Virus record (IMG/VR): IMGVR_UViG_2541047695_000003
Direction: 5' to 3' (one strand)
Source: a virus
Taxonomy: Duplodnaviria > Heunggongvirae > Uroviricota > Caudoviricetes
DNA length: 34,489 nucleotides
Shown: positions 3,143 through 17,100 of the stretch, piece after piece
Numbering within the stretch: position 1 is the first letter of the stretch
Layout of the letters: every line of letters starts with the position of its first letter
Program-made: the position numbers and the translations under genes
Notes under the pieces: generated by a model
Database searches by the model: none
The model's input: only the letters and a program-made list of their open reading frames with translations
Told to the model about the DNA's origin: nothing

Positions 3143-3167
3143 TTTAATGATCATGAAAGGTATTGGT

Positions 3168-3196: not shown

Positions 3197-3290
3197 TAAA
3201 TTGCTTCCTGATTATTATTTCTCCAAAAGAAAGATTATTATATTCTAAAGATACTTCTTCGTTTTGATCATAATTTAATCAAATCATGAA

Positions 3291-3309
3291 GGAGGGCTTT
3301 GCCCGACTG
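3291..3309. repeat. Direct repeat copy 2: GGAGGGCTTTGCCCGACTG
   Basis: See copy 1 at 2860-2878. Confidence 0.5.
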
Positions 3310-3398
3310 AATACAATCACCTTTCATAATAACAAGAATTTTCTCTTTATAAATAATAGTGAACTTACTTGATTCACTTTCTTTTAGAGGATACCACT

Positions 3399-3848
3399 AT
3401 GATCAATACTAAAACTCCTTTCGTACTTCTGGGTCTGGACTCTGAAAACTATGGTAACTTCCATATGCTAGAAGTTTTCGCTCATCGTGGTTATAACATC
3501 ATTCGTCATTCCGAAGACTCCAACTACTCAACTGCTTTCTACGCTTTAAAACGAAATGGTCGTCCTACTGTGATCATCGACTGTTTTACTGATGAGGGTC
3601 GTCTTCAATACAACGATATTCCAGCAATTATTGTTCGTGATGATCTGCCGTTTCAAGTCCGTTCCGGTGACATTGACCTGGGTAGCTTCTTGACTCTTCG
3701 TGAACTGGATGAAGCAATGTTTAATTACGGTAAAGAAACCGCTCAGGAAGCCCCAGAACAAGATGAGGAAGACGAAGACTACGCACCAATCGCTTTCTCT
3801 TCTCACGGTGGCTTCTACGGTTACGACGAAGGCTTAGATATGCTGTAA
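3399..3848 (+). CDS. Hypothetical early protein (149 aa) with strongly acidic C-terminal tail
   Basis: ATG at 3399 (MINTKTPFVLLG...) with GAGGA SD; the track ORF starts 10 codons earlier without an RBS. C-terminus EAPEQDEEDEDYAPIAF... is acidic. Confidence 0.7.
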   Translation: MINTKTPFVLLGLDSENYGNFHMLEVFAHRGYNIIRHSEDSNYSTAFYALKRNGRPTVIIDCFTDEGRLQYNDIPAIIVRDDLPFQVRSGDIDLGSFLTLRELDEAMFNYGKETAQEAPEQDEEDEDYAPIAFSSHGGFYGYDEGLDML

Positions 3849-3883
3849 GTTAGGTCAACCCTTTGGCATCTTGTCAAGGGGTA

Positions 3884-3912
3884 TTGACAAAAATTTCTGA
3901 CTTTTTTATGAT
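3884..3912 (+). promoter_or_regulatory. Candidate sigma70 promoter (-35 TTGACA 3884-3889, 17-bp spacer, -10 TATGAT 3907-3912); -35 embedded in inverted repeat TTGTCAAGGGGTATTGACAA (3871-3890)
   Basis: Consensus -35 and near-consensus -10 with 17-nt spacing about 55 nt upstream of the 3969 start codon; a second TTGACA lies at 3921-3926. Confidence 0.5.
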
Positions 3913-3968
3913 TATCGAACTTGACAACTTTGAACCTATTTGACCTAGATTTGTAAAGAGGATGTAAC

Positions 3969-4301
3969 ATGAAAGAATTTACCATCACTAAATCCCTGTA
4001 TGACTGGACTGTTAAAATCTCCGGCAAAACCGTTTCTGTAACCCCTAGCCATGTAGAAAATGATTGGGGCGTATCCCGTGAAACTATCTCCCGTAGTATG
4101 CATGTTCCGTTTGATCTGATGACCTTAACTGGTATTCATGCAATGCTGGAAGTTCGCGAGCAATTCGAAGCTGGTAATCACAATGCAACTCCAGTTAGCA
4201 ATCACCTTCTTACTAATGAAGAACGTGAAATCATCGAAAACTGGCGTTATGAATATGCGATTCCTTATTATGAAGAAGACCAAGTAGAAATCGATTGGTG
4301 A
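3969..4301 (+). CDS. Hypothetical protein (110 aa)
   Basis: ATG with AGAGGA SD 7 nt upstream; promoter candidate immediately upstream; no recognisable motif. Confidence 0.75.
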   Translation: MKEFTITKSLYDWTVKISGKTVSVTPSHVENDWGVSRETISRSMHVPFDLMTLTGIHAMLEVREQFEAGNHNATPVSNHLLTNEEREIIENWRYEYAIPYYEEDQVEIDW

Positions 4302-4389
4302 TAAATTTCTATTATAAATAAAATTGTTCCGGTTGAGATGCCGGAACTAGGAGGATCAATCACTAAACCGTTTAAGGGGAATTAATACT

Positions 4390-5196
4390 ATGAATACTGT
4401 TACCGTTATGAATACTGCTAAAACTGCTTCCGTGTCTCTGGTTGTTGATAACACCAAACCGCTGACCATGTCTTCCCGTCAGATCGCTGAATTTACCGGA
4501 AAGAAACACTTTCACGTAAAACGCGACATTCGCGAAATGCTGATTACCTTAGAATTAGATGAATCCAAATTTGGATGCATCTTTTTTGACCAATATGGAC
4601 GCGAGCAAACAGAATATCACTTGAATGAAGAACTGACTCTGACTCTTGTCACTGGTTACAATATCCAGATGCGAAACGCGGTTATTCAGGAATGGAAGCG
4701 ACTGAAAGAAGAAAATGAAAAACTTCGCTCTACTCCGGTTAACCCGTATGCAGACTTTGAAGAAACAGACTGGATCGAACTGGCATTAAAGAAAACTCGC
4801 GAAAATAAAAAGCTGATTGAACTTCATGTTCGCAAATCCGTAGATAGCCATTCAATGACGCGTCTGTTAGGCGCTAAAAAGGGCGCTACGAAGGTTAAAG
4901 AAGCACTGACGGCCTTACGTACTGCTGGATACATCGAGCGCGTCTATGATGAAAATAACAAGCCGTGTGGGTATGTTGCTAATGATTCTTCTCTCTCTTT
5001 CTGCCGCATGAATGCTCACTACCAACTTGAGTTTACTGTTGATGTGCTTCCGGTGCTGGTTGAATTGGGTGTTTTGGAAGAAGAACAAAAAGCAACTCTG
5101 AATCTTCCTAAGCCGAACAACACTATTCTGATTCAAAATAAAGCGGCTGAACGTCTCCGTCAGAATGTTGGATCACTGGAAGTCTTCGGACTGTAA
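4390..5196 (+). CDS. Rha-family phage regulatory protein / antirepressor-like (268 aa)
   Basis: N-terminal SRQIAEFTGKKHFHVKRDIREML matches the conserved Rha-domain signature (HxxVxRDI) as I recall it; AAGGGG SD; followed by a strong terminator. Confidence 0.75.
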   Translation: MNTVTVMNTAKTASVSLVVDNTKPLTMSSRQIAEFTGKKHFHVKRDIREMLITLELDESKFGCIFFDQYGREQTEYHLNEELTLTLVTGYNIQMRNAVIQEWKRLKEENEKLRSTPVNPYADFEETDWIELALKKTRENKKLIELHVRKSVDSHSMTRLLGAKKGATKVKEALTALRTAGYIERVYDENNKPCGYVANDSSLSFCRMNAHYQLEFTVDVLPVLVELGVLEEEQKATLNLPKPNNTILIQNKAAERLRQNVGSLEVFGL

Positions 5197-5202
5197 TTAA
5201 TC

Positions 5203-5236
5203 GCCCGGCGCATAATTGCGCTGGGCTTTTTGTTTT
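5203..5236 (+). terminator. Rho-independent terminator (GCCCGGCGC-ATAATT-GCGCTGGGC plus TTTTTGTTTTT)
   Basis: 9-bp stem with one G-U pair followed by a T-run directly after the 4390-5196 stop. Confidence 0.7.
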
Positions 5237-5330
5237 TATAGATAACAGCATTTTTGCTGGCATCTATAGATCAGTCCAGATTTGGACTCAACTTAGAAAT
5301 GAGCGCAGTTTTGCGCCGATTGTTTTACAT

Positions 5331-5356
5331 ACAAAAAAGCCACTCCGAAGAGTGGC
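5331..5356 (-). terminator. Rho-independent terminator for the leftward operon (GCCACTC-TTCG-GAGTGGC plus U-run on minus strand)
   Basis: Perfect 7-bp stem 5339-5345/5350-5356; A6 on + strand (5333-5338) gives a U-run after the hairpin on the minus transcript; 15 nt beyond the stop of 5372-5599. Confidence 0.6.
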
Positions 5357-5371
5357 AAAGAGAATCAAAAC

Positions 5372-5599
5372 TCAAAAACCTGTTGCTTCTACGATCTGAC
5401 CATCACCGATCTGAACATAGAATTTAATGTCTAACTTCTTCATATTCTTATAGAATTGGGCAATTGAAATCCCATGTTCACTAAGAATCTGTTCTTTCGC
5501 TTCCTTACCACGATCCGCTGTATAATAAGCGTAGGCAATATCAGCCATTTGTTCAGCGTTAAAACGGGCAGGACGACCGCGAGTAGCTTTAGTAGTCAT
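5372..5599 (-). CDS. Small HTH DNA-binding protein (75 aa, MTTKATRGRPARFNAEQMADIAYAY...GISIAQFYKNMKKL), paralog family A; resembles terminase-small-subunit / AlpA-type N-terminal HTH
   Basis: Second in-frame ATG (5599) has GGAGAA SD at 6-nt spacing; the first ATG (5605) abuts the SD. GRP-x-RF...DIA...GIS..FYK.MKK motif shared with 1775-1954. Confidence 0.6.
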   Translation of the reverse strand: MTTKATRGRPARFNAEQMADIAYAYYTADRGKEAKEQILSEHGISIAQFYKNMKKLDIKFYVQIGDGQIVEATGF

Positions 5600-5633
5600 A
5601 GTCATTTCTCCAAATTAAAGTGAATGTTCACTT

Positions 5634-6239
5634 TTATTTAGAGGACTTACATTTTATCGGAAAAAGTTCTCCATCGTCAATACTCATAAAGAACTCTGCC
5701 TTAATCCCGTACTTCTTCAACCGTGAATAGTATGTACCCCGACTTATATCAACCTTGCGCAGCACTTCAAAGAACCCTTTAGGATCGTTGTAATAGTGGC
5801 TGTATCGCACGTTAGCGAGTTCTACAAACAATTCCCTTGTATCACCATAGCCTTTCTTGAAAGCCTCGTTACGATAGCGTGTAATAGCGTGATTCAATCT
5901 CTTCTGTTTCAACACTTCTCGGATCGGCTTCCACTGCAACCTATAGATAGGACCGTCATCAATGCGATAATAACGCTTGATATCAAAATCAAACCAATCT
6001 CGGACTCGCTGAAACTCTGTCTGTGAGGTGCGATACTTCTTAAAGAAGTTATGAATATCGGTATACCCATGATCACGATACAACTCGATTAAAATCTGTT
6101 TAGCTTCCTCACGACTAAAGCCAGATGTTGTGTAATCAGTCTTCTTGTGATGGTGCTTAACTGGCAAACGATATTCATGATCGGTACAACAAGAAAAGGC
6201 TAATTCTACTTCATCTCTTTGTTGCTGATTAATTAGCAT
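5634..6239 (-). CDS. Hypothetical protein (201 aa) with C-terminal HTH-like segment ([16 protein letters not shown]) related to paralog family A
   Basis: AGGGGG SD 5 nt upstream of ATG 6239; divergent from the terminase gene; function unknown. Confidence 0.7.
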
Positions 6240-6326
6240 ACAACCCCCTTAAATATTAATACCCGTATTTATCAAAATATCAACAATTTAATAAATACCT
6301 TCATATTTCGTAATGAGGGTAATTAC

Positions 6327-8234
6327 ATGAAACTAATTTCTAATAAGGCCAAATTAAAAAAGATTCTCAGAAATGCAGCCAAATATATTACGCCACCGCC
6401 TAAACTCCTTCCATCGGAATGGTGCGAAGCTAATATGGTGCTGGTAGATGGTCCTCAAGCTGGGGATAAAGTTAAATTGCTGTCATTCCAGAAAGGTATG
6501 ATTGATGCTCCTTTCCTTGAGAACAAGAAAAAGTATGTTCTGATGACCAGTGCGCAGATCGGAAAGACTACCATCCTGAACGGCATCCTGTTTAACCAGA
6601 TGGCTAACGATCCATGCAATATGATTATCGGACAATCAACCGCTAAAGAAATGTCTCAATATCTCGCTGGTAAGATCCGACCGTCTATCGAAGCATGTGA
6701 TGCATTAAAAGACGTGGTTACAGACAAGAATGATCGCAATGCGGTTAACAACAATAACCAACTCCAGCTAAAAACGAATCACTTCCTGTACATGGTATCG
6801 CTTACCAGTCCATCAACCCTGCGCGGTAAGACTGCAAAGGTCGGACTACTAGACGAAATCGATGCTGCTACAGCCTCAGAAGAAGGTGATCCGGTGGCAC
6901 TGGCTGCTAACCGTTTAACTACCTTTGGCGATGAAGGCCGATTAGTCGTATCCAGTACCCCGACCAGTAAGCTCGGAAGCATTAACCAGCAATGGTTATC
7001 AAGCGATATGCGTATGTTTTTTGTTCCGTGTCCTCATTGCGGGGAACACCAGGTGATCGAGTGGGAAAACGTTCAATTTGAATGGCGTAACATCGATGGT
7101 AAGAACTTACCCGATCCTGATACCGCTCGTTATATTTGCCCCCACTGTAAGAACGCATGGACAGAAGGGGAACGAATCAGGGCAGTAGCGCAAGGCGAGT
7201 GGAGAGCAACCCGTGAAAGTGAAGTAGCAGGATTCTGGATTAGCCGTCTGTATTCACCTTTCAGCACGATCCGCGCTTGTGTGGTTGATTTTAGTCATGC
7301 GTGGCAATCCTTTGATTTACAATCATTTTATAACACCGTGTTAGGCAAGGTATACGATGATCAGGACACGGCAGTAGAAGCAAATGAACTGGAACAACTC
7401 AAAACAGATGTTTCTATCGAGAATATCCCTGATGACGTGATTTTCTTGTGCTCAGGAATTGACCAGCAATTGGATCGCGCAGAATCTACCATCTTAGGTG
7501 TAGCGAAAGATAAGGTTTACATTCTGGATCACCGTAGCTTTTACGATCATAACTGTGAACGATACGAATCACCTGTATGGGATCGTCTGGTTAACTTCAA
7601 GAAAACCAAATTCTATAACGTTAATGGTGAACGTGTGCCAATGCTCGCCAGCTTCCTCGATACATCAAACGGTCGATTCACTCAAGCCGGATACCGTATT
7701 TGTGGTAAGTGGAAGAACCTACACGCTATTAAAGGTAGTTCATCTGGTAATGCTCCAGTGATTCCGGTTAAACCTACCCGCACAGGTGGTCATGAATTGC
7801 TTATGCTGGGCGTTAACGTTGGTAAATCCGCTGTTCGTGAAATGCTGGTTAGAAACCTGAAAGATAATCCTCATATTGGCTTAGAAATATCAGAAACCGT
7901 TCCTGATGATTATCTCGATCAGCTTTTGAGTGAATCCATCAAGCGTACTACTACTGGTGTTCGTTGGGTGAAAAATCCAGGTAGTACCCGAAACGAGGCT
8001 CTCGACTGTCTGGTTTATAGCTATGCTGCTTCTCGCTACGTCCTTTCAAAAATGTCATGGGATAAACTCATTGCAATGAAAGACAGCTTAAACAGCGTTA
8101 AAGAAGAACCCGTAAAAGCTCCTGAATCGCAATCTGACGAGCAAATCGAAGAAACTAAGCCAATCACACGACCGCAACGTCAAAACATCGCCAGACGCCC
8201 AAATAGAGGCCGTAGCTGGGTAACATCGTTCTAA
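6327..8234 (+). CDS. Terminase large subunit, lambda gpA family (635 aa)
   Basis: By recall of lambda gpA: matching N-terminal EW-x-ANxxL...FQ segment, Walker-A-like SAQIGKT, CPHCGE...YICPHC zinc-ribbon-like pair, and C-terminal RNEALDC(L/F)VY motif; GAGGG SD; first gene of the long rightward structural operon. Confidence 0.9.
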
Positions 8235-8240
8235 TAACTC

Positions 8241-8262
8241 GCCGTCCTTCGGGGCGGCTTAC
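8241..8262 (+). terminator. Hairpin GCCGTCC-TTCG-GGGCGGC after terminase gene (weak or attenuating terminator)
   Basis: 7-bp stem with UUCG loop; downstream only moderately T-rich, so termination is probably partial. Confidence 0.3.
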
Positions 8263-8306
8263 TCCTAAATATTGTTAATCCAATAACAATTAAATAAGGG
8301 GTAATT

Positions 8307-8804
8307 ATGAGTTTAGAACTAATTCCCTTAGTAATTCGTAAAGGCGAAAAAATCACGCTGGCGAATGAAGAGGGTGTAACAATTCAGGTAGGAAATAATA
8401 ATAAAGGTATCATTTATCAGGTTGATGATACTCCGGCTAATCACGAGATTAAAACCTTAGATTTTGCCGAAGGTAAATATACCATCGTAATAACTTTGGA
8501 AGAAGAACTGATATCAATGCAGGAATTAACTGTTTTACCAGTATTCGCCAAACAATCCAAAAAAGAATATCTGCGGGAAACTATCGCCTTAATCGAGCAA
8601 GTTATTTTCGCCCGTTTATCTGGGGACGAAGCCGCATTATCAGCAATGACAGTGAAAGGGAATACTTTCGCCTATGAGTCATTGGCTGTTCTCCAGACTC
8701 TAAAAGTCGATTATGAACGTCAACTGTCTAAATTAATTCAAGCCGAACGACGTAAACAGGGAATTAGCCCGATTAAAAATATCAAATTACGTCTTACGCG
8801 ATAA
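8307..8804 (+). CDS. Hypothetical protein (165 aa) between terminase and portal
   Basis: AAGGGG SD; position corresponds to small head-completion or joining genes in lambdoid head modules, but no motif recognised. Confidence 0.65.
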   Translation: MSLELIPLVIRKGEKITLANEEGVTIQVGNNNKGIIYQVDDTPANHEIKTLDFAEGKYTIVITLEEELISMQELTVLPVFAKQSKKEYLRETIALIEQVIFARLSGDEAALSAMTVKGNTFAYESLAVLQTLKVDYERQLSKLIQAERRKQGISPIKNIKLRLTR

Positions 8805-8814
8805 GGGGTAAATC

Positions 8815-10326
8815 ATGTTTAATCTTTTTCGACGCAAAAAGGCGGTAGAAACTCCAGTTAAAACTAATCACCGCCAGCAACAACCAAAAATTTTCATCGA
8901 TAAGCAAGTAGAAAAATTCCAGAAATCTCTGGCGACTCGTAGTTTAGGACTGGTTGGTGATCGTATTGATGGATCACTTCAACAAGACACCATTACAGGA
9001 ACCTTCAATAAGGCTCTCAAATCGAATGGTAAGCGCCTTTATGATCAGGGTCGTACTCTGGCCTTAAACACTTCCGTAGGCAGTCGCTACACGCAATACA
9101 TCACCGATATGGTGGTAGGTACTGGCCTAGATCCGAAGCCGTCAGTTGTTAAACCAAATGGAAAACTTGATAGCGCACTGAATAAGCAGATCGAGAATGC
9201 TTTCTGGAAGTGGGCGCAGAATGCTAAACGCTTCTCTCGCAATGGTCGTTTTAACTTCCGTGAATTGCTGGTAATGGCTGAACGTGAGCGCGTTATGGGT
9301 GGTGAGTGTTTCATCGTTTTAACTAAAGAAAACAATGAGTTAAATGTTTCTATCCTGTCTGCTGATAAATGCGACTGGTCGCTAAACCGTGAAATAAGCA
9401 AAGAGCGTGCGATATATCAAGGTGTGGAGTATGACGTAGAGACGATGAAGCCCGTAGCATACTGGTTTCGTAAAATCAACCTACTGACTCAGACCTACAC
9501 TGGTGATAACTATCGCGTCGATGCTTCGCAAGTATGCCATTATTATCAACCACTTGCGGCTGAATCCCTGCGTGGTGTGACTGACTTCCTGCCAGTGATT
9601 AAGGATATCGCACATCAAGACGCATTCCGCGAAACTGCGATCGTCCAGAAACGTATTGCGGCTAGTTCTATGGGCTTTATCGAACGTCCGAAAGATTCTG
9701 GTGACGATTTTGATACTGGTGAAGAGGATGAACAATATCAAGCGCCGGAAGTAGTACAGGATTTTGCACCTGGTACTATTCAGGAATTACCGGAAGGGGC
9801 AACGATCAAGAGCATCCAGGCGACGCAAAGCGGTGATGATTTCAAATCCTTTAACGATGCGATGTATGGTAGCGTCGCGATGGGCTTAGGCGTGTTTAAA
9901 CAGGGCTTGACTGGTGACACTAGCCAAATAAATTACAGCGCCAGTAGATTCGGTGATTTAATGCAACGACACCGCGTTAAAGCACTGCAAAACAAATTGA
10001 TTGAAACAGTGGTATTGCCAATTTTCGAAGCATATCTACGCCATTATTCCGCGCGTGGTATTGTTCCGATTCGTATTACTGCAATTCCGCATATTATCGA
10101 TAACACTACTATTATTCGTCCTCGTTTTGAATCCGTCGATCCATTTAAAGACGTAAGCGCCGAGATTGCTTTAATTGATAACGGACTTAAATCACGTACT
10201 GCCGTTATTCTTGAACGTGGTGATGATCCTGAAAAAGTATTCTCAGAGATTCAAGCCGAAAAGAGCGCACTAAATATTATCGTTAATGGCGAGGGTGAAG
10301 AAAAAAATTCCCCAGCCGATCCCTAA
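8815..10326 (+). CDS. Portal protein (503 aa), putative
   Basis: Size and position immediately downstream of terminase large subunit and upstream of protease/capsid; AAGGGG SD. Assignment is by synteny; not verified by homology. Confidence 0.7.
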   Translation: MFNLFRRKKAVETPVKTNHRQQQPKIFIDKQVEKFQKSLATRSLGLVGDRIDGSLQQDTITGTFNKALKSNGKRLYDQGRTLALNTSVGSRYTQYITDMVVGTGLDPKPSVVKPNGKLDSALNKQIENAFWKWAQNAKRFSRNGRFNFRELLVMAERERVMGGECFIVLTKENNELNVSILSADKCDWSLNREISKERAIYQGVEYDVETMKPVAYWFRKINLLTQTYTGDNYRVDASQVCHYYQPLAAESLRGVTDFLPVIKDIAHQDAFRETAIVQKRIAASSMGFIERPKDSGDDFDTGEEDEQYQAPEVVQDFAPGTIQELPEGATIKSIQATQSGDDFKSFNDAMYGSVAMGLGVFKQGLTGDTSQINYSASRFGDLMQRHRVKALQNKLIETVVLPIFEAYLRHYSARGIVPIRITAIPHIIDNTTIIRPRFESVDPFKDVSAEIALIDNGLKSRTAVILERGDDPEKVFSEIQAEKSALNIIVNGEGEEKNSPADP

Positions 10327-10371
10327 TAACCAACGGGGGCGCAATGTCCCCAATTAATTAAAGGTGATTAA

Positions 10372-12372
10372 ATGCTTAAATTTCGCCGCGATCTTAACGG
10401 TTACGGTGGAGTTATTAACGAAGGGCATAACGATCAATACGAATTTGAAATTGCTTTCTCCAGTGAACAGCCGTATCAGCGCCAATTCTGGGATGAGCAA
10501 AATCAAGAGATGGTGGTACTAGATGAAATTCTGGTACATACACCGGAAGCGGTTGATCTGTCTCGTCTGAATAATAACGCTCCGTTGCTGTTCAATCATA
10601 ATTTCGATAATCATTTAGGTGTAGTCTGCGACGCTCGAATCGATGCGGATAACGTAGGTCGTGCTCTGGTTAAATTCTCTAAGCATGGCACTTTGGCTAA
10701 TGATATTCGCAATAAAGTCATTGAAGGTACGATGGAAAAAATTTCTGTCGGCTATGACATTAAAGAATATCACATCGATTACGCCAAAGGGCAATTGATT
10801 GTTACTAAGTGGGCGCCCTATGAACTCTCATTTGTCACCGTTCCTGCTGACGATACGGTCGGTTTAAATCGCTCTCTAAATACTATCACAGTTAATTTGG
10901 AGGCTAAACGCGATATGACTAAAGAACAAATTGAAGAAATCAAAGAAGAACAAGAATCCGCTCAGGTTGAAGAAACTCCGGTAGAAGAAATTAAAGAATC
11001 GGAAGTTGAAGAAACTCAAGAGCGCCAAGTTGAAGAGAATAAAGAAGATGAAAATCTCGAAGACGGAAAAGACGCTGAACATCCTGAAAGTGTTGATGAT
11101 GATAGTTCAACTGTTCGGGAAGAAGAAATAAAAGAAGAACGTGAAGCTGCTCCGGTTGAAGAAGAAAAAATCGAAGAAGTGGCTGAACGTTCCGAAGAAG
11201 ACGAATTAGAAATTCGCGAAATTGCACGCGAACTAAATATTGATGACGAAGAATTGAAACGCGCATTGGCAATTAAAGACATGACGCCGGAAGCATTCCG
11301 CACTAAGGCACTAAATAATCTCGTCAATGCTCAACGTAATAACGAACAAATTAAGGACTCTAAAATGGAAAAAACTTTTGACCTGAACAACGTAATTCGC
11401 TCTCTGGTAGATGGTGCTGCTCTGGGTGCTAACGAAGCTGAATATTCCTCTATGGCTGCTGGTGCTGCGATGCAGCGTGGTCGTGCTGCTCGTGGTGGCT
11501 CTGTATTCGTTCCGGCTGCTGCTCTGCGTGCTGCTGCTGATGGTAACACCAAAACTACTCTGACCGCTGTAACTGACGAAAAACTGATGACTGAATCCTA
11601 CATCGAAATGCTGATGCCGGAATCTGTTCTGGGTCGTCTGGGTGTGACTGTTTACAGTGGCTTGAACTCCCCGACCGCTATTCCAAAAATGACCGCTTCC
11701 AGCGTTGACGCTTTCGGCTTCGTTGATGAAAACGGTGCTGCACCGGAAAGCAAAGCTGAATTTGCGAACGTGAAACTGTCTCCGAAAACTTTTGCTGGTG
11801 GCAACCCGATCAGCCGTCAGTCGCTGAAAACCGTTCCGGGCATCGCTACCCTGATCACTGATCACATTAACAAAGCTGTTCGTATCAAACTGGAACAACT
11901 GATTCTGTCTGATAAAGAAAATGCTCGTGGTCCGGCTGGTCTGGTTAAGCAACTGGTAGACGCTAGCCGCGTTACCAAGAAAGCTGCTTTCTCTTATAAA
12001 GACTTCCTGAAAGAAATTGCAGCACTGACCGACGCTGGCGTTCCTGCTCAGGCGATCAAGTTTGCAATGAGCGGTGCAACTGCTGCTGAACTGGAATCTA
12101 CCCTGAAAGATAACGGCGTTTCCGGTTATATCATCGAAAACGGCAAACTGGCTGGTTACGAAGTAGTTACTTCTGGCGTTATCCCGGCAGACCACATCGT
12201 TCTGGGTGACTTCTCCGGTATTACTATCGGTGAGTGGGGAGGTCTGGAACTCGACATGGATCTAACTACATATAGGGATCGTGGTGCGGTAGTGCCTCGT
12301 ATCTTTGTAGATTTGGACTACGTTGTAGCACAGCCGGAAGCCCTGAAAGTTCTTCACATCTCCGCTGAATGA
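10372..12372 (+). CDS. Fused prohead protease (HK97-type, S78-like) - acidic scaffold-like linker - major capsid protein (666 aa)
   Basis: N-terminal ~180 aa carry His (LFNHNFDNHLGVV) and Ser (EKISVGYDIKEY) motifs typical of HK97-family prohead proteases; residues ~190-330 are Glu-rich and coiled-coil-like; C-terminal ~330 aa have capsid-like composition (MEKTFDLNNVIRSL...AAGAAMQRGRAARGG...). Strong terminator follows. Confidence 0.85.
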   Translation: MLKFRRDLNGYGGVINEGHNDQYEFEIAFSSEQPYQRQFWDEQNQEMVVLDEILVHTPEAVDLSRLNNNAPLLFNHNFDNHLGVVCDARIDADNVGRALVKFSKHGTLANDIRNKVIEGTMEKISVGYDIKEYHIDYAKGQLIVTKWAPYELSFVTVPADDTVGLNRSLNTITVNLEAKRDMTKEQIEEIKEEQESAQVEETPVEEIKESEVEETQERQVEENKEDENLEDGKDAEHPESVDDDSSTVREEEIKEEREAAPVEEEKIEEVAERSEEDELEIREIARELNIDDEELKRALAIKDMTPEAFRTKALNNLVNAQRNNEQIKDSKMEKTFDLNNVIRSLVDGAALGANEAEYSSMAAGAAMQRGRAARGGSVFVPAAALRAAADGNTKTTLTAVTDEKLMTESYIEMLMPESVLGRLGVTVYSGLNSPTAIPKMTASSVDAFGFVDENGAAPESKAEFANVKLSPKTFAGGNPISRQSLKTVPGIATLITDHINKAVRIKLEQLILSDKENARGPAGLVKQLVDASRVTKKAAFSYKDFLKEIAALTDAGVPAQAIKFAMSGATAAELESTLKDNGVSGYIIENGKLAGYEVVTSGVIPADHIVLGDFSGITIGEWGGLELDMDLTTYRDRGAVVPRIFVDLDYVVAQPEALKVLHISAE

Positions 12373-12509
12373 ACTCCTGTAGAACCTTCTGAACCTTCCC
12401 CCGATTTGGGGGAAGAAAATCTGATTCCATCTCAGGAAGAAGAAGTTCAAGAGGTTACGGCGAAAGCCACAGTTAAAAAAGAACGTAAGACTAAAGCAAA
12501 ATAATAATT

Positions 12510-12537
12510 AGCCCTGCCTTAATGGTGGGGCTTTTTT
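12510..12537 (+). terminator. Rho-independent terminator after capsid gene
   Basis: GCCC...GGGGC hairpin followed by TTTTTTG at 12531-12537. Confidence 0.6.
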
Positions 12538-12567
12538 GTATGTAAATACTCCATAAAGGGGGTAACT

Positions 12568-12858
12568 ATGTTCAAATTATCAGAATCACAATTATCAAGA
12601 ATGTTTCGAAGTGCTCCTGTATTTTCGGTGGAAGGTGGTAAATCAATTCGTGCTTATCATGAAATTACCACTACCGACGAACAAGGGGTAATTACAGAAT
12701 CAGAATTTCTATTTTGTCGTGAGGGAGACTTAAATCAGGGTGATGTTGTCATTGTAGACGGTGAACGCTTCAAAGTTCAATACGTTAAGCGCAATGGTGA
12801 TAATACTTCTGATTGCTTTATTGCTCGTGCAGGGGGTACACATGCTCGCTACCGTTAA
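12568..12858 (+). CDS. Hypothetical head-tail connector / head completion candidate (96 aa)
   Basis: Small ORF immediately after the capsid gene and terminator; assignment by position only. Confidence 0.6.
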   Translation: MFKLSESQLSRMFRSAPVFSVEGGKSIRAYHEITTTDEQGVITESEFLFCREGDLNQGDVVIVDGERFKVQYVKRNGDNTSDCFIARAGGTHARYR

Positions 12859-13264
12859 TAATATGCCTAGACTGAAAATTAAACGCGCCTTGCAGGATAT
12901 TATCGAACAAGATTTAGGTCTGGCTTTAAACGTAGAACAAACTCAGCAAGGCTTTAGTGATGATGTGGTTTGTTGGATTACCGGAATGAATGAGACTTAC
13001 AATAGGGTCCGTGGTGGTAATGCAATGCAAGCTGAATGCGTTATCGAAATGCAGTTGTATTCTCAGAATCATGAAACCAAAATTCATGAGGGTATTTGCC
13101 AGATAATCCAGATTCAGCCTGATAATCCACGTTTTAAAGATTTGGGCTTCTCTATTTCAGATATCACTCCAGTAGCTTCTAATACCGATTATGACGATGA
13201 TTCTAGTGATGGGGGTATCGTTGGGACACTTAGCCTTAAATTTTCTTATCTAGCGCGTTTTTAA
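12842..13264 (+). CDS. Hypothetical head-tail joining candidate (141 aa)
   Basis: Start reassigned to ATG 12842 (AGGGGG SD at about 7 nt) rather than track start 12761; overlaps the previous gene by 17 nt in a different frame. Confidence 0.55.
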   Translation: MLATVNNMPRLKIKRALQDIIEQDLGLALNVEQTQQGFSDDVVCWITGMNETYNRVRGGNAMQAECVIEMQLYSQNHETKIHEGICQIIQIQPDNPRFKDLGFSISDITPVASNTDYDDDSSDGGIVGTLSLKFSYLARF

Positions 13265-13273
13265 GGGGTAATA

Positions 13274-14107
13274 ATGAATATTACACAAGATAACTTAGAC
13301 ATTTTCACGGGGTCACATGTTGAAGTCTCCGTGTCTACTATGGTGGATAACCAGCCGGACTTTTTCGATCCTGCATTTAGTCCTATCGAGAACATCGCAG
13401 CATTCCCGACGATAACCGAATCCACAGAGATCCAGACGTTAGAAGAGTATGATCAGGACGCTACGGGGAAACTTGCTGGTTATCGTAAACTTGAATCAAC
13501 TACGTTAGTAGTAAACCGTGTTCTGGATGACGAACATCAAGACATGTTGATGAAAGCGGTGAATGATAAAACTCCTTTACGCTTTCGTATGTTCTATGTT
13601 GTGAACTCTGGCTATAGTGCTGCTAACACAGGTTACTACGTCATTTTTGACGCTTATGTCTCGTCACATAAAACAAAATCCGGTGATAACAAAGTTACTA
13701 CAATCGAGTTTAAATTAGAACCTGATGGCGGGATTCTAGATCGCGGTATTGCTACCGAAGGCCGGATCTTACGTCAAGGTGATTTTGGTTTGGGCGCTGG
13801 TGTACATCCATTCACAGGTCCGATTGATAGCGAAGCATTAGCCGGAAACCGTTTCGTAACTTATCAGGGATCGAGCGTATCTAATCCATTTAGTGCTGAT
13901 ACTTCACTAATTCACGTTCAACCTAATGAAGATGGTGGATGGCAATTAACTTGCACCGCTTCCGGCGCACCACGTTTACGAGTTCGCACAGTCCAGAAAG
14001 ACGGTAATTCTGGATGGGTGAAAGTGTATTCCACAGAAGAAAAACCGACACCAGCCGAGATTGAAGCCGTTTCTATCCATGACCGGATCGACTTCGGGGA
14101 ATACTGA
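13274..14107 (+). CDS. Tail-tube-like protein, long paralog (277 aa) with C-terminal extension
   Basis: N-terminal ~160 aa align by eye with ORF 18705-19175 (DIF(T/S)G...I-x3-AAFP...H-x2-(L/M)-x-KA...DG); C-terminal part carries a KPTPAEI motif identical to one inside the tail fibre (14181-17705). Confidence 0.65.
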   Translation: MNITQDNLDIFTGSHVEVSVSTMVDNQPDFFDPAFSPIENIAAFPTITESTEIQTLEEYDQDATGKLAGYRKLESTTLVVNRVLDDEHQDMLMKAVNDKTPLRFRMFYVVNSGYSAANTGYYVIFDAYVSSHKTKSGDNKVTTIEFKLEPDGGILDRGIATEGRILRQGDFGLGAGVHPFTGPIDSEALAGNRFVTYQGSSVSNPFSADTSLIHVQPNEDGGWQLTCTASGAPRLRVRTVQKDGNSGWVKVYSTEEKPTPAEIEAVSIHDRIDFGEY

Positions 14108-14180: not shown

Positions 14181-17100
14181 ATGCAGTCGATCCAATTTAA
14201 ACGAACAAATGTTTCTGGCAAAAAACCAACGCCGGAACAATTACAGGTCGGTGAGGTAGCAATCAACCTTAAAGACCATGTTATTTTTACCAAAGACCGA
14301 GATCATGAAGTAGTTCAAATCTCTGTTTCTCCTGAAACTCACGCGGCACTAGAATCTAAAGTTGATGCTAATAAAAAAGAACTGGATAGCACAATTGCAG
14401 TAAATGACCGCAATATTCACGCTAAAGTAGATGAAATTAAACAAACTACTGATGCAACCATCGCAGCAAATCACGCAGAAATTAACAATAAAGTTGATGT
14501 AATTAAACGCGAAACCGACGCGACAATCGAGGCCAATAAAAATAAAGCTGCTTCCGATCTTGCTGGTGTTAAAGCTGAATTGTCGGATACCATCAACGCT
14601 AATAAAAATGCGGCTGCTGTAGCAACTCAGGAACTGGACACCCGCATCAATAAAAAAGTTGATGATATTAAATCCCGTACCGATGCAACCATCGCAAGCA
14701 ATGACAAAGCAATCAATGACAAAGTTGATTTGATTAAGGCAGAAACTGACCGCACTATCGCAGCAAATCACGCCTATGCGGAAAATCAGTTAACTGACAC
14801 CTACAATAACCTTACTGGTGTGATTGCAGCCAATAAGCAAGAGGCAGCGGATAACGTCGCAGCATTAACCCGTGATGTTGAAGCCAAAAATACAGCAATT
14901 CATAGCAAAGTTGACAATAACAAGTCTTACACTGATTCTGAATTGGCACGTTTAGAAAGCCGTATTGATGCAGCCGATGGATCTGCTGATGGCAAGTACA
15001 TCAAAAAACACGTAAACACTTATACTGATGGTTATTTGCTGTCTAAGACCGCAAACTATTTTGATGATCCAAATGCGCGTAATCTTGATTACTTTGGTGC
15101 ATTCCGCATGAATGACCTGGCGGGTCATATTGCAATGATCTTGCATGTTCCGCATCCATCTGGTGTTAATCATGCTCGTGGCTTCGAGTTCACTTATGGG
15201 TCTAATCCACATGCTACTGTAAGAACATACGGCTATGATGAATTGGGACATTTGGCATATTCTCACCGCATGTATCATGAAGGTGATAAACCTACTCCGG
15301 CTGAAATTGGCGCATATTCGAAAGCAGAAATTGACCGACTGTTCCAGAAGACGCTTAATTTTGGTATCGAGGGTGGTTGGTTTAAACTAGGCACTTTGAC
15401 AATGCCACAACAACACGGTCGCACGGCTAAGATCCGTTTGGTTGGTGGTAACGGTTATAACGTAGGACATAATGGACAAGCCAATATTATCGAATTGGTG
15501 ATTCGATGCGGCAACAATAGCCCGAAAGGTGTTGTATTCAATGCGTATTATACTATTTGGCATCATGAACAACATTTTTGCGCTATTCCAACCGATGGCG
15601 ACAATTACGATCTTTACGCTTACTACGGTGCACATACAGGATTTGTTTTAGCAGAATATCAAGTTTCTTCCGGTGGTGTTTCTTTAAACCTGTTGGATAC
15701 TCCTGAATATCTGGGTGGTGAAAAACCTGTTGCAGATGAAATTTTTGATGCTCTTAACATTTCATCGTTCAATAACTTTAGCAACCGTGGGACGTTAAAT
15801 TTTGCTGGCAATCATCAAGGCCAATATGATATTGAGCATTTAAACGAACAACCGACAAATGCTAAAAAGATGTTGCGTCGCTTCCGTAGTTGTGCACCAG
15901 CTACAATCTGGCATGAGACAGTTGATGATAACGCATATCGTCTTGCTACTGGATACGAAGATACAAATCAGGAATTATTGCTGTCAGCAACATCCGGGTT
16001 ACATGTCAAGAAATTAACATTGGATGGCGGTGTTACTGGAAATTCTGGTATTGATATTCGTCGAGGACCAAACGAATCAAGCCATTTTAATTTCATGGAT
16101 TATCGCACTGGACAAGATGTTCGTAATGGCTGGTTTGGCTTCGGTGATGGTCAGACCAAAGATTTTATTTGGTGGAACGATAACGGTCAAAACTCTATAA
16201 ACCTGATTGAAGATGGTGAATTGCATATTACTGGCGGTAAAGGCCAGAAAATTGTAATGAATAGCGAAGTTGCATTATCTGAAAATGCTCGTTTGGCTGT
16301 CAAAGGTGGTAACTATGGTTTAATCCTTCGTAATGATGGTTCTAGCTTCCATATTCTTACTACCGATTTAAAAGATTCCTTTGGGACGTGGAACACTCGT
16401 AGACCATTTAGTTATGATTTCGCCGAAGGTGGATTAGATCTAGGTGGCACAGCTACCGCACGCTGTTTACATCTGGGAATTGATGGTAGCACCCGCATCG
16501 AAGATAATATGGTGTTTAGATCAGGGTCTCGTCAGTCAATGGACTATATTGAATTAATCCATTGGGGTAACAGTAATACCGCTCGTAACAACGTTTTGAG
16601 TATGAAAGACTCGAAAGGATTCCTTGCTGAATTTGAACGCGTGGGGGGTACTAACGGCGTTAAAACCAGATTCTTTGGCGAAACATTCACTGACGGTACA
16701 TTATACCTAAATCAGATGAATAATAGCTCTGAACGATTCTCTATCAATAACTGGGGAAATTCAGAAGTTGGTCGCGCGGCAGTGATGGAAGTCGGTGATT
16801 CCAAAGGTTATCACTTCTATACTGAACGTAGGACAGATAACAGTTTGATGTTTGATGTTGCTGGCGCTTTTACTGTGCATGGACCTTCCGGGATTACTAT
16901 CAAAAACTCTGCTGGTGCTCGCCACGTCTGGTTTAGAGATGATAGCGATACGGAAAAGGCTGTTATCTGGGCTACAGATGAGGGTATTTTACATATTCGC
17001 AATAACCACGGTGGACAATTTACACATCACTTCCAGGGCGCGATGATTAAACTGGAAGGGCGTGTTCCTTATGCCGCAGATCAAGGACTTATCCGTGGTG

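What the first reader, a model, noticed from the sequence alone, without database searches (positions are those of the whole stretch)
10372..12372. Single 666-aa polypeptide combining prohead protease, acidic scaffold-like linker and major capsid protein
One continuous ORF contains an HK97-type protease-like N-terminal domain, a ~140-aa Glu-rich helical segment with scaffold character, and a capsid-like C-terminal domain. In most HK97-like phages protease and capsid are separate genes with the scaffold as a capsid delta domain; a full three-part fusion implies self-processing of the capsid precursor and possibly internal translation starts (for example Met at MEKTFDL, about nt 11365) to set stoichiometry.
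Basis: partly seen in the sequence, partly recalled or inferred. Interest (0 to 1): 0.6.

Follow-up and report, generated by a model that had tools for sequence, protein, structure and literature searches.

The report
Nested protease–scaffold–capsid fusion gene
This E. coli prophage gene really does encode head protease, scaffold-like linker and major capsid protein in one reading frame, which is a common and already described arrangement, but sequence evidence suggests that most capsid protein is made from a second ribosome start inside the gene, and that a few copies gain an extra tail by reading through the stop codon.

Summary
ORF 10372–12372 (+) encodes 666 aa: an S78 prohead protease domain (H76/S125/E151 invariant in 65 diverse relatives), a disordered acidic linker (170–269), a helical module (270–392) and an HK97-fold capsid domain (~397–666).

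The fusion is not rare. An identical protein is in NCBI; it matches PHROG 617 along its full length; nearly all of the 150 best-scoring 50%-identity clusters have fusion length; "protease-scaffold-capsid fusion" is described in the literature.

- E. coli codon adaptation jumps from background (0.27) to highly-expressed level (0.67) at codon 329 (support interval 320–338).
- ATG 11365 has AAGGA 7 nt upstream and the least-structured mRNA in the ORF.
- An equivalent SD-ATG occurs in 65/65 related genes.
- Of 150 in-frame internal ATGs in the window, only this gene's M182 and M332 pass the filter.

Most likely the gene is nested, like λ C/Nu3: minor full-length protease-capsid, major 35-kDa capsid precursor.

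Separately, the gene ends in TGA-A, and the frame stays open 43 codons. This holds in all 44 TGA-terminated relatives, suggesting readthrough. None of the expression claims has protein-level evidence.

The parts
10361..10367 (+). Shine-Dalgarno-like AAGGTGA for the first start codon (ATG 10372)
   Evidence: Sequence read; anti-SD pairing -6.9 kcal/mol, spacing 4.
10372..12372 (+). 666-aa protease-linker-capsid fusion ORF (73.4 kDa full-length product)
10432..10878 (+). Prohead serine protease domain (residues ~21-169; MEROPS/Pfam S78, HK97 gp4 type)
   Evidence: Pfam PF04586 aa 40-162, E 5.6e-10; AlphaFold pLDDT about 88-97 over 21-165.
10597..10599 (+). Codon of His76, putative catalytic His
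   Evidence: Invariant in 65 diverse family members.
10744..10746 (+). Codon of Ser125, putative catalytic nucleophile
   Evidence: Invariant in 65 diverse family members.
10822..10824 (+). Codon of Glu151, putative third catalytic residue
   Evidence: Invariant in 65 diverse family members.
10879..11178 (+). Acidic linker (residues 170-269; 41% Asp+Glu; predicted disordered)
   Evidence: Composition; pLDDT <50; length and sequence highly variable in the family.
10899..10917 (+). Secondary candidate internal start: GGAGG (10899-10903) and ATG of Met182 (10915-10917), at the protease/linker border; product 485 aa, 52.7 kDa
   Evidence: Anti-SD -9.3 kcal/mol with a long 10-nt spacing; local fold -3.5 kcal/mol, 6th percentile; one of only 2 of 150 internal ATGs passing the filter. 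The linker codon adaptation is at background, so use at high level is unlikely here.
11179..11547 (+). Helical scaffold/delta-like module (residues 270-392)
   Evidence: AlphaFold helices 275-287, 292-300, 306-334, 338-347, 353-368, 382-393 with pLDDT 75-96; conserved E..R..EI...AI..G.S...F motif in the family consensus; no Pfam family.
11353..11367 (+). Principal candidate internal ribosome-binding site: AAGGA (11353-11357), 7-nt spacer, ATG of Met332 (11365-11367); product 335 aa, 35.2 kDa
   Evidence: fold -1.5 kcal/mol, 2nd percentile; SD-ATG in 65/65 genes, 26 variants; control.
11365..12200 (+). High codon-adaptation block (CAI 0.65-0.95, against 0.27-0.36 upstream and in neighbouring genes)
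   Evidence: change-point at codon 329, 2-lnL support 320-338; Leu CTG 5/23 before against 22/23 after.
11548..11589 (+). Hinge containing the predicted maturation cleavage site (residues 393-406; mature N-terminus about L397 = nt 11560)
   Evidence: pLDDT <50; the R4C mature chain 8gta starts at G362 of 629, aligned to about residue 397 here.
11560..12369 (+). HK97-fold major capsid domain (about 270 aa, 28.7 kDa mature)
   Evidence: Pfam PF05065; phmmer 8gta_A E 3e-24; Foldseek 8gta, HK97 1ohg/2ft1, D3, GTA.
12370..12373 (+). TGA stop followed by A; candidate leaky stop
   Evidence: 22 of 24 genes in the window use TAA; all 44 window-type and PE15-type relatives have TGA|A.
12373..12507 (+). 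In-frame 43-codon extension (acidic/Pro-rich spacer plus basic tail TAKATVKKERKTKAK), closed by TAA TAA
   Evidence: open in 44/44 loci, 25 distinct sequences, 8 length classes that are all multiples of 3; the other two frames are closed.
12510..12538 (+). Intrinsic terminator hairpin and T-run ending the capsid transcript unit
   Evidence: 9-bp stem, 6 G-C pairs, T-run; conserved across relatives.

Best explanation
This is the head-assembly gene of an uncharacterised temperate E. coli siphophage. It merges the equivalents of lambda C (protease), Nu3 (scaffold) and E (capsid) into one ORF directly downstream of the portal gene.

Shown: the domain architecture, the catalytic residues, the HK97 fold, and membership of a very large family of such fusions.

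Inferred step 1: the full-length 73-kDa protein co-assembles into the procapsid through its capsid domain. That carries the S78 protease and the linker inside.

Inferred step 2: the protease then removes everything N-terminal of about residue 397, leaving a 28.7-kDa mature capsid protein, as in roseophage R4C.

Inferred step 3: the gene is nested. A second ribosome-binding site (AAGGA, 7 nt, ATG 11365) inside the ORF produces a 35-kDa capsid precursor (Met332-Glu666) that lacks the protease and acidic linker. Judging from codon adaptation, this is the predominant translation product. Protease:capsid stoichiometry would then be set by the relative strength of the two starts, as in lambda C/Nu3, HSV-1 UL26/UL26.5 and HFTV1 gp17/17.5. 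A third start at Met182 may give a scaffold-capsid form at low level.

Inferred step 4, more tentative: a small fraction of ribosomes read through the TGA-A stop and add a 44-residue tail (Trp at the UGA plus 43 codons), likely exposed on the capsid exterior.
For: Architecture: PHROG 617, aa 21-661 against profile 24-621/626, E 2e-94; invariant H76, S125, E151.

Processing: (8gta chain = residues 362-629 of R4C gp6).

Genomic context: TerL, head-tail joining protein, lambda-type portal, then the fusion gene, with no separate protease or scaffold gene.

Internal start:
(a) CAI with Glu/Lys excluded is 0.28 (protease), 0.26 (linker), 0.83 (332-396) and 0.63 (capsid). The same step occurs in all 10 E. 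coli-host genes, 0/300 permutations each.
(b) The change-point is at codon 329, support 320-338. No comparable step occurs in TerL, portal, fibre, tape measure or tip genes.
(c) The step begins about 65 codons upstream of the mature N-terminus, and it does not coincide with the observed mosaic joint near codon 180-200.
(d) A host-independent codon test places a significant switch within 12 codons of the equivalent Met in window, PE15, P0127 and P0124, and 20 codons from it in P0136.
(e) SD-ATG is present in 65/65 genes and 26 variants. AAGGA is retained while the encoded amino acids change (IKDSK, NKEKN, NKEQI, NKESI).
(f) Local mRNA fold is -1.5 kcal/mol, the 2nd percentile of the ORF.
(g) Only M182 and M332 pass among 150 in-frame internal ATGs.

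Precedent for nested starts: bioRxiv 10.64898/2026.09.13.751334.

Readthrough.
Against: There are no protein, ribosome-profiling or transcript data for this phage or any close relative.

The SD of Met332 (-3.7 kcal/mol) is weaker by pairing energy than that of Met1 (-6.9), so the claimed excess of the short product rests on codon bias alone.

The CAI weights were entered from memory (Sharp and Li 1987), although the host-independent test agrees with them.

In DCP80 and CK01361 the codon step begins earlier (about codon 180), so the dominant start may differ between lineages.

In the other large subfamily (VP882, R4C, Murka) the equivalent position is G-[M/L]-[S/T] and is not obviously a start, so the mechanism may not be general.

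A Met332 product would lack most of the helical module, because helix 306-334 is cut. It is untested whether such a protein can assemble.

For the readthrough tail, the peptide shows only weak purifying selection (25 synonymous to 33 nonsynonymous changes, no third-position excess) and background codon usage.
Confidence: 0.7

Rival explanations
1. Simple polyprotein. Only the full-length 666-aa protein is made, so every capsid subunit carries its own protease and linker (1:1), and all are trimmed after assembly. The intragenic codon-usage step and the SD-like motif are by-products of mosaic ancestry and of Lys-Asp/Glu coding.
For: This is the default reading of the annotation (PGAP calls a single CDS) and of the literature on such fusions (PMC7302621). 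Modules of this gene are clearly exchanged by recombination: the protease module of CFSAN061761 is only 47-54% identical while its linker is 96-100% identical. The last ~45 codons of the window gene are a low-CAI mosaic patch. AAGGA can arise from K-D/E codons.
Against: If only one product were made, every codon would be translated equally often, so translational selection could not differ between halves. Yet the step persists in lineages as diverged as 40-44% aa identity, which argues for ongoing selection rather than a relic. The step is at codon 329, not at the observed recombination joint (about 180-200), and not at the mature N-terminus (397). AAG is the non-preferred Lys codon, but it is used in every AAGGA variant. 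The SD is kept when the amino acids change. None of the other 148 in-frame internal ATGs in the window passes the same filter.
Confidence: 0.2
2. Two transcripts rather than two translation starts. An internal promoter upstream of 11365 produces a shorter, abundant capsid mRNA, as for HSV-1 UL26.5, and Met332 is simply its first AUG.
For: It would equally explain the codon-usage step and the conserved SD-ATG. The herpesvirus precedent uses a separate promoter (from memory).
Against: No sigma-70-like promoter is found anywhere in 10200-12700 (0 found, 3.4 expected in shuffles). Phage late operons are usually read through as long polycistronic transcripts. The scan covers only the sigma-70 consensus, so phage-specific late promoters are not excluded.
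Confidence: 0.08
3. The sequence after the TGA is non-coding spacer, or a separate tiny gene, rather than a readthrough extension.
For: The peptide is low-complexity, shows no third-position excess, and has background codon usage. A single 43-codon open stretch has about 6% chance probability. Basal UGA readthrough in E. coli is low (from memory).
Against: The frame is open in 44/44 loci and 25 distinct sequences, with 8 length classes that are all multiples of 3, and the other two frames are closed. The extension always abuts the TGA with no intervening stop, despite mosaic joints on both sides. There is no conserved start codon: the in-frame TTG is Ser in L021 and L133. TGA is used in this gene but in only 2 of 24 window genes. 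Sister lineages reach a similar basic tail by in-phase A_AAA_AAG or A_AAA_AAA heptamers, or encode it constitutively.
Confidence: 0.4

Closest known systems
Protease-scaffold-capsid fusion genes of tailed phages (PHROG 617 and 4523; NCBIfam NF045541; actinophage clusters EE, AN, AX, FE, CW, DM, EL, Rhodococcus RRH1; Rhodobacter RcC cluster; Xanthomonas Murka/FoX; Pseudomonas PPpW-3; Vibrio VP882; Halomonas phiHAP-1; roseophage R4C)
   Same: Single ORF after the portal gene with an N-terminal S78 protease domain, a variable linker and a C-terminal HK97-fold capsid domain. Full-length profile match to PHROG 617. 27-33% identity to the named phages. [quoted passage not shown]
   Different: None of these descriptions, as far as I could read, reports internal translation starts or C-terminal recoding. 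This E. coli prophage lineage has no isolated, characterised phage relative above 44% identity. It scores below the cutoff of the NCBIfam fusion model (131 against 525 bits), so it belongs to a different sub-lineage.
Nested protease/scaffold genes: lambda C/Nu3, HSV-1 UL26/UL26.5, Haloferax virus HFTV1 gp17/gp17.5
   Same: One ORF with an N-terminal protease. An in-frame internal start gives an abundant N-terminally truncated product that shares the C-terminal part, so the protease is targeted into the procapsid and its dose is set by start-site choice. The head module here is lambda-like in order and in its portal and terminase families.
   Different: In those systems the short product is the scaffold, and the capsid protein is a separate gene. 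Here the inferred short product is the capsid protein itself with a 65-residue N-terminal propeptide. The protease is S78 (HK97 type), not S49 (lambda C) or S21 (herpesvirus). Evidence here is indirect only.
HK97 gp4 protease plus gp5 capsid protein with N-terminal delta domain
   Same: Same protease family (Pfam PF04586) and same capsid fold (Foldseek 1ohg, 2ft1). No separate scaffold protein. An N-terminal capsid extension is removed by the protease.
   Different: In HK97 the two are separate genes, and the protease is targeted by its own C-terminal tail (from memory, Duda et al. 2013). Here they are covalently linked in the full-length product. The TIGR01543 equivalog model is not reached (35 against 59 bits).
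T7 capsid proteins gp10A/gp10B (-1 frameshift) and Qbeta A1 (UGA readthrough of the coat gene)
   Same: A minor capsid protein with a C-terminal extension made by recoding at the end of the major capsid gene. T7 gp10B is the frameshift product of gp10A, and its C-terminus is surface-displayed (PMC3444042). Qbeta reads through a UGA (from memory).
   Different: Readthrough of a capsid-gene stop has not, to my knowledge, been described for a dsDNA phage. The tail here is short, disordered and basic at its end rather than a folded domain. It is untested.

Membership tests
Prohead protease-scaffold-major capsid fusion proteins (PHROG 617 / 4523 type) | N-terminal HK97/S78-type prohead protease domain in the same polypeptide as the capsid domain | tested here: met
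   Pfam PF04586 aa 40-162, 40 bits against cutoff 21; phrog_4523 'major head and protease protein' E 9e-41.
Prohead protease-scaffold-major capsid fusion proteins (PHROG 617 / 4523 type) | C-terminal HK97-fold major capsid domain | tested here: met
   PF05065 E 2e-26; 8gta_A E 3e-24; Foldseek TM 0.6-0.75 to R4C, HK97, D3 and GTA capsids.
Prohead protease-scaffold-major capsid fusion proteins (PHROG 617 / 4523 type) | End-to-end similarity to the family profile | tested here: met
   phrog_617: aa 21-661 against profile 24-621 of 626, E 2.4e-94.
Prohead protease-scaffold-major capsid fusion proteins (PHROG 617 / 4523 type) | Located directly downstream of the portal gene with no separate protease, scaffold or capsid gene | tested here: met
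   Portal 8815-10326 (PF05136, E 1e-62), fusion gene from 10372; neighbours carry no such functions.
Prohead protease-scaffold-major capsid fusion proteins (PHROG 617 / 4523 type) | N-terminal protease and linker removed from the virion capsid protein | not testable with these tools
   Inferred from the R4C homologue, whose solved capsid chain is residues 362-629 of 629.
NCBIfam NF045541 'prohead protease/major capsid protein fusion protein' (scaf_prot_MCP2) | Score at or above the curated cutoff (525 bits) | tested here: not met
   131 bits, and only aa 22-349 aligned. Same architecture, but not a member of that specific curated family.
MEROPS S78 / HK97 gp4 prohead serine protease | Conserved catalytic His and Ser (plus acidic third residue) | tested here: met
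   H76, S125 and E151 are invariant across 65 sequences at 25-43% identity. Assignment of these positions as catalytic is by analogy with HK97 gp4 and T4 gp21 (from memory).
MEROPS S78 / HK97 gp4 prohead serine protease | TIGR01543 equivalog cutoff (59 bits) | tested here: not met
   35 bits. It is a domain-level relative, not an equivalog of stand-alone HK97 gp4.
MEROPS S78 / HK97 gp4 prohead serine protease | Proteolytic activity on the capsid precursor | not testable with these tools
   Requires expression and an S125A control.
Nested (in-frame internal start) head-assembly genes, lambda C/Nu3 type | In-frame internal start codon with its own ribosome-binding site | tested here: met
   AAGGA, 7 nt, ATG 11365; minimal local structure; conserved in 65/65 genes; only 2 of 150 internal ATGs pass the filter. 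These are sequence features only.
Nested (in-frame internal start) head-assembly genes, lambda C/Nu3 type | The shorter product is made independently and in excess of the full-length product | tested here: inconclusive
   Supported indirectly by the codon-adaptation step at codon 329. No protein or ribosome data.
Nested (in-frame internal start) head-assembly genes, lambda C/Nu3 type | The shorter product is the scaffold protein | tested here: not met
   The Met332 product would be the capsid protein with a 65-aa propeptide. Only the minor Met182 candidate would include the scaffold-like part.
Recoded C-terminally extended capsid proteins (T7 gp10B, Qbeta A1) | Recoding signal at the end of the capsid gene, with a conserved open frame beyond it | tested here: met
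   TGA|A in 44/44 loci; the frame is open for 27-45 codons; 8 length classes all multiples of 3; sister lineages carry in-phase A_AAA_AAG or A_AAA_AAA.
Recoded C-terminally extended capsid proteins (T7 gp10B, Qbeta A1) | Extended protein present in virions | not testable with these tools
   Needs MS or SDS-PAGE of purified virions.

The most novel reading that the evidence does not exclude
One ORF serves as a complete, self-dosing head-assembly programme. Up to three in-frame N-termini (Met1 protease-scaffold-capsid, Met182 scaffold-capsid, Met332 capsid) and two C-termini (UGA stop, or readthrough into a surface-exposed acidic-spacer/basic tail) would set the ratios of protease, scaffold, capsid and decorated capsid from a single mRNA. 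Sister lineages reach the same C-terminal tail by three different decoding modes: constitutive, -1 programmed frameshift on A_AAA_AAG, and UGA readthrough. This would be the first nested capsid gene of this kind, and the first stop-codon readthrough reported in a dsDNA phage capsid gene.
Probability: 0.3. Interest if true: 0.65.

Novelty: new variant of a known kind. Interest (0 to 1): 0.42.

Why it matters
Protease-scaffold-capsid fusions are annotated in hundreds of phage lineages, but the annotation leaves a puzzle. A T=7 shell would carry about 415 proteases and linkers if the gene made only one product. Separate-gene phages such as HK97 use far fewer proteases than capsid subunits (from memory).

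The sequence evidence here offers a concrete, testable answer for at least one large subfamily. The gene would be nested, with an internal ribosome-binding site making the bulk capsid protein, and the full-length form acting as a capsid-anchored protease delivery vehicle. That extends the lambda C/Nu3, herpesvirus UL26/UL26.5 and HFTV1 gp17/17.5 strategy to a case where the capsid protein itself is the nested product.

Practically, it means genome annotation misses the main capsid precursor (35 kDa, not 73 kDa). It may also miss a minor extended capsid species. This matters for proteomics, for capsid engineering or display, and for interpreting defence systems that sense capsid or protease proteins.

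If only the plain fusion is real, the finding is ordinary.

Tried and rejected
(1) Frameshift, stop or assembly artefact separating protease and capsid. Rejected: a single ORF in the window, an identical protein in NCBI, and an intact gene in 63 of 65 loci. An IS1 insertion splits it in one strain.

(2) N-terminal domain not a protease. Rejected.

(3) CAI step as an artefact of the Glu/Lys-rich linker, because GAA and AAA are both optimal and AT-rich. Corrected by excluding Glu and Lys; the step then sharpens and moves clearly to codon ~329.

(4) CAI step as a mosaic joint. The observed joint is near codons 180-200, not 329.

(5) 'Only the retained mature part is optimised'. Rejected, because residues 332-396, which are removed, have the highest CAI.

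(6) The low-CAI last 45 codons as a functional slow-down before the stop. Rejected as lineage-specific: VTB96775v has 0.86 there.

(7) An internal sigma-70 promoter. None found.

(8) A Pfam family for the linker/helical module or for the extension. None found.

(9) An independent small ORF for the extension. There is no conserved start codon.

(10) Generalising the internal start to the VP882/R4C/Murka subfamily. The position there is G-[M/L]-[S/T] and is not convincing.

(11) The R4C structure paper does not mention the protease or cleavage, so the mature N-terminus is taken from the deposited chain only.

(12) Liu and Mushegian 2004 (PMC421614) could not be read.

(13) A first motif regex failed and was replaced by an alignment-based approach.

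(14) Literature searches for internal starts or readthrough in such fusions found nothing relevant. The library is limited to open-access papers, so absence there is weak evidence.
Full report
OBSERVATION. The window contains one uninterrupted ORF at exactly 10372..12372 on the + strand: ATG start, 666 codons, TGA stop. Pfam places a Caudovirus prohead serine protease domain (Peptidase_S78, PF04586) at residues 40-162 (E 5.6e-10, above the gathering score). It places a Phage_capsid domain (PF05065) at residues 407-662 (E 2.1e-26). The gene directly follows a lambda-family portal gene (8815-10326; PF05136, E 1e-62). That in turn follows a large terminase gene and a head-tail joining gene.

ORIGIN. 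The window is a temperate E. coli phage. The capsid gene is found at 80-96% nucleotide identity in 49 of 5,426 complete E. coli genomes. It is always chromosomal, and PGAP annotates it as a single 'phage major capsid (family) protein'. An identical protein is already in NCBI. In one strain an IS1 element splits the gene, and PGAP then labels the two halves 'HK97 family phage prohead protease' and 'phage major capsid protein'. No isolated phage is closer than 43% identity.

IS THE FUSION UNUSUAL? No.
- The protein matches PHROG 617 end to end (aa 21-661 against profile 24-621 of 626, E 2e-94). It also matches phrog_4523 'major head and protease protein'.
- NCBIfam has a curated model named 'prohead protease/major capsid protein fusion protein', which this protein hits below its cutoff.
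- tblastn finds the same architecture in 94 phage records, including Xanthomonas Murka ('major capsid protein and protease'), Pseudomonas PPpW-3, Vibrio VP882, Halomonas phiHAP-1, Rhodobacter RcCronus and roseophage R4C.
- An exhaustive HMMER search of 1.84 billion cluster representatives gives 486 clusters at E <= 1e-30. Nearly all of the best 150 are 565-700 aa long and match at both ends.
[quoted passage not shown] It calls this a common feature of several small actinophage clusters (PMC7302621). [quoted passage not shown]

ANATOMY. An alignment of 65 family members at 25-43% identity has seven invariant columns: E52, H76, G83, S125, Y128, E151 and G612. H76, S125 and E151 are the His/Ser/acid set expected of an active HK97/T4-type prohead protease; assigning them as catalytic is by analogy, from memory. 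An AlphaFold2 model built on this alignment (mean pLDDT 81) gives:
- a confident protease domain (about 21-165);
- a disordered stretch, 170-269, which is the acidic part (41% Asp+Glu);
- a confident helical module, 270-392;
- a low-confidence hinge, 393-406;
- a confident capsid domain, 407-666.
So the Glu-rich segment is predicted disordered rather than helical, and the scaffold- or delta-like helices lie after it. Foldseek against the PDB returns HK97-fold capsid proteins, led by the R4C capsid 8gta and followed by phiXacJX1, D3, HK97 and RcGTA.

PROCESSING. The R4C gene encodes 629 residues with the same architecture. The deposited capsid chain 8gta_A has 268 residues and corresponds to residues 362-629. 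Its first residue aligns to about L397 of the window protein, inside the low-confidence hinge. By inference, residues 1 to about 396 are removed here too, leaving a 28.7-kDa mature protein. The R4C paper itself does not discuss the protease or cleavage, so the exact site is approximate.

THE INTERNAL START. Reading the DNA showed AAGGA 7 nt upstream of ATG 11365, and a visible change of codon style at that point. Quantified with E. coli relative-adaptiveness weights (entered from memory), CAI is:
- 0.36 for codons 1-331;
- 0.84 for codons 332-396;
- 0.66 for codons 397-666;
- 0.31-0.35 for terminase and portal;
- 0.63 for the tail tube gene.

GAA and AAA are both optimal and AT-rich, so I repeated the analysis without Glu and Lys. 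The values are then 0.28 (protease), 0.26 (linker), 0.83 (332-396) and 0.63 (capsid). Leu CTG goes from 5/23 to 22/23 and Asn AAC from 6/24 to 11/12.

A least-squares change-point falls at codon 329, with a 2-lnL support interval of 320-338. None of six other long genes in the window shows a comparable step (R2 <= 0.034 against 0.13).

All ten E. coli-hosted fusion genes I fetched show a significant step (0/300 permutations each). This includes lineages only 40-44% identical to the window protein (PE15, EN-1077, 2021CK-01361, DCP80). In DCP80 and 2021CK-01361 the rise begins earlier, at about codon 180.

A host-independent version scores codons by each locus's own mature-capsid region against its own portal gene, and is applied only to the untrained part of the ORF. 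It places a significant switch next to the equivalent Met in window, PE15, P0127 and P0124, and 20 codons from it in P0136. In DCP80 it falls next to Met180. It lacked power in the other seven loci tested.

The step cannot be explained by optimisation of the retained mature part, because it starts 65 codons upstream of the mature N-terminus. It also does not coincide with the observed recombination joint near codons 180-200.

If the ORF had only one translation product, all its codons would be read equally often. Translational selection could not then differ between halves. A step maintained across deep divergence therefore argues that the 3' part is translated more often.

THE SITE ITSELF.
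- In 65 of 65 related genes (26 distinct sequence variants) there is an ATG within 22 codons upstream of the conserved F/Y-D/S-L...IR(S/A) segment. It is preceded at 4-9 nt by AAGGA(A/T), AAGGTGA, GGTG(G/A) or, in four loci, the weaker GGCGGTA.
- Within the window-type clade the encoded peptide changes (IKDSK, IKESK, NKEKN, NKEQI, NKESI) while AAGGA and its spacing are kept.
- The motifs are built from non-preferred codons (AAG, GGA, AGA, ACG, GTG).
- The 61-nt window centred on ATG 11365 folds at only -1.5 kcal/mol, the 2nd percentile of the ORF. Met182 folds at -3.5 and Met1 at -5.8.
- As a control, I examined 150 in-frame internal ATGs in 24 genes of the window. Only two pass a combined filter (anti-SD <= -3.7 kcal/mol, spacing 4-10, fold >= -4), and both are in this gene: Met182 and Met332.
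- No sigma-70-type promoter is present in 10200-12700.

MECHANISM PROPOSED. The gene is nested.
- The full-length 73-kDa protein would be a minor species. It co-assembles through its capsid domain and so anchors the protease and linker inside the procapsid.
- The 35-kDa Met332 product would be the bulk capsid precursor.
- A 53-kDa Met182 product (GGAGG with a long 10-nt spacing) may add a scaffold-bearing form. It may be more important in the DCP80 lineage, where the linker has intermediate codon adaptation.
- After assembly the protease removes everything N-terminal of about residue 397.
This is the lambda C/Nu3, HSV-1 UL26/UL26.5 and HFTV1 gp17/gp17.5 logic. The last of these was recently demonstrated by ribosome profiling and MS (bioRxiv 10.64898/2026.09.13.751334). 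The difference is that the nested product here is the capsid protein rather than the scaffold.

The domain architecture and the sequence features are shown. The relative abundance, the cleavage site and the assembly roles are inferred. Weak points:
- Met332's SD is weaker by pairing energy than Met1's.
- A Met332 product would lack half of the helical module.
- In the VP882/R4C/Murka subfamily the equivalent position (G-[M/L]-[S/T]) is not obviously a start.

BEYOND THE STOP CODON. The ORF ends TGA followed by A. The same frame then runs 43 more codons (TPVEPSEPSPDLGEENLIPSQEEEVQEVTAKATVKKERKTKAK) to TAA TAA at 12502-12507, two bases before a strong intrinsic terminator.
- I collected 59 loci from E. 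coli genomes and IMG/VR. All 44 window-type and PE15-type genes end in TGA|A and keep the frame open for 27-45 codons.
- There are 25 distinct extension sequences in 8 length classes, and every length is a multiple of 3. The other two frames close within 5-34 nt.
- No start codon is conserved within the extension.
- TGA is used by only 2 of 24 genes in the window.
- The peptide itself is under weak constraint (25 synonymous to 33 nonsynonymous single-nucleotide codon differences, no third-position excess). Its codon usage is at background. Both fit a disordered tail made at low level, but they equally fit non-coding DNA.

The TAA-terminated sister lineage shows three patterns.
- Some genes encode an Ala/Lys-rich tail constitutively (for example ...YEKGTPAEAKAAKQ).
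- Others have the tail only in the -1 frame, reachable through in-phase canonical slippery heptamers: L060 A_AAA_AAG and L064 A_AAA_AAA.
- Others have only degenerate A-runs at that position.
So a similar tail appears to be reached by three decoding modes. The known analogues are T7 gp10A/gp10B, where the frameshift product has a surface-exposed C-terminus (PMC3444042), and Qbeta A1, made by UGA readthrough (from memory). Stable hairpins follow the stops, and I did not analyse them further. I rate translation of the extension by readthrough at roughly 0.55-0.6.

VERDICT. The finding as written is real but ordinary: the gene is a member of a large, named family of single polypeptides joining protease, linker and capsid. 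That turns a stoichiometry puzzle about a widespread gene family into a directly testable model. I found no prior report of this, though the searchable library is limited. The candidate readthrough and frameshift tail is a second, more tentative, new feature. Neither has experimental support.

Noticed in passing
window 12370-12507 (and terminator 12510-12538): TGA-A stop of the capsid gene is followed by a 43-codon in-frame open stretch (acidic/Pro-rich spacer plus basic tail) ending in TAA TAA just before the terminator. This is conserved as an open frame in 44/44 related loci, with 8 length classes that are all multiples of 3. It is a candidate UGA readthrough extension of the capsid protein.
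   Followed up: yes
L060:3115-3140 and L064:3085-3105 (approx.; last 6 codons of the capsid ORF); also L008, L010, L001: In the TAA-terminated sister lineage a similar Lys-rich tail lies in the -1 frame. In two loci it is reachable through in-phase canonical slippery heptamers (A_AAA_AAG, A_AAA_AAA). Other relatives (L056-L059, L063) encode an Ala/Lys tail constitutively.
   Followed up: partly
window 12392-12416; L004, L021, L008, L060, L001 just after their stop codons: Stable hairpins lie 7-24 nt downstream of the capsid stop codons. The window has an 8-bp G/C-rich stem (ttccccc...gggggaa). L008 and L060 share an 8-bp stem with a compensatory change. These are possible recoding stimulators, or merely coding sequence.
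   Followed up: partly
window 14181-17705 (nt identity over about 15267-18666): The 1174-aa tail fibre gene is 85-93% identical at the DNA level to long tail fibre distal subunit (gp37-type) genes of T4-like E. coli phages (KFS-EC, phiS, G37-3). This points to recent horizontal exchange of a receptor-binding module between a temperate siphophage and virulent myophages.
   Followed up: no
L001 (PQ671644.1, Escherichia phage DCP80, positions 1-13786): This record is classified as Straboviridae/Tevenvirinae and is 141 kb long. Yet it begins with a lambda-like head module (TerL, portal, protease-capsid fusion) in which all genes are annotated 'hypothetical'. It may be a chimeric assembly of a T4-like phage with an induced prophage.
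   Followed up: no
L003:1501-4281 (E. coli FXCREC043): An IS1A insertion splits the fusion gene within the linker. PGAP then names the halves 'HK97 family phage prohead protease' and 'phage major capsid protein'.
   Followed up: yes
window 10372-12372 compared with L006 (CFSAN061761) and other variants: The gene is mosaic at domain boundaries. The protease module can be swapped (47-54% nt identity) while the linker stays 96-100% identical, making it the most conserved part at the nucleotide level. The last ~45 codons of the window gene (about 12235-12369) form a low-CAI patch that is only ~70% identical between variants.
   Followed up: partly
window 13274-14107 and 18705-19175: Two genes hit the same major-tail-protein family (phrog_158): a 277-aa protein and the 156-aa high-CAI tube protein. 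The 277-aa gene is the only other gene in the window that ends in TGA (TGA|T).
   Followed up: no
L054 and L062 (IMG/VR contigs): Two related contigs carry frameshifted, broken copies of the fusion gene. The capsid part continues in the +1 frame. These may be decaying prophages or sequencing errors.
   Followed up: no
L014-L020 (metagenome/genome relatives P0127, P0132, P0129, P0136, P0140, P0156, P0186): In these relatives the called start of the fusion gene overlaps the end of the portal gene by about 45-50 nt, and the next gene follows the stop within 4-20 nt, so there is no extension. The true first start codon may lie further downstream than called.
   Followed up: no
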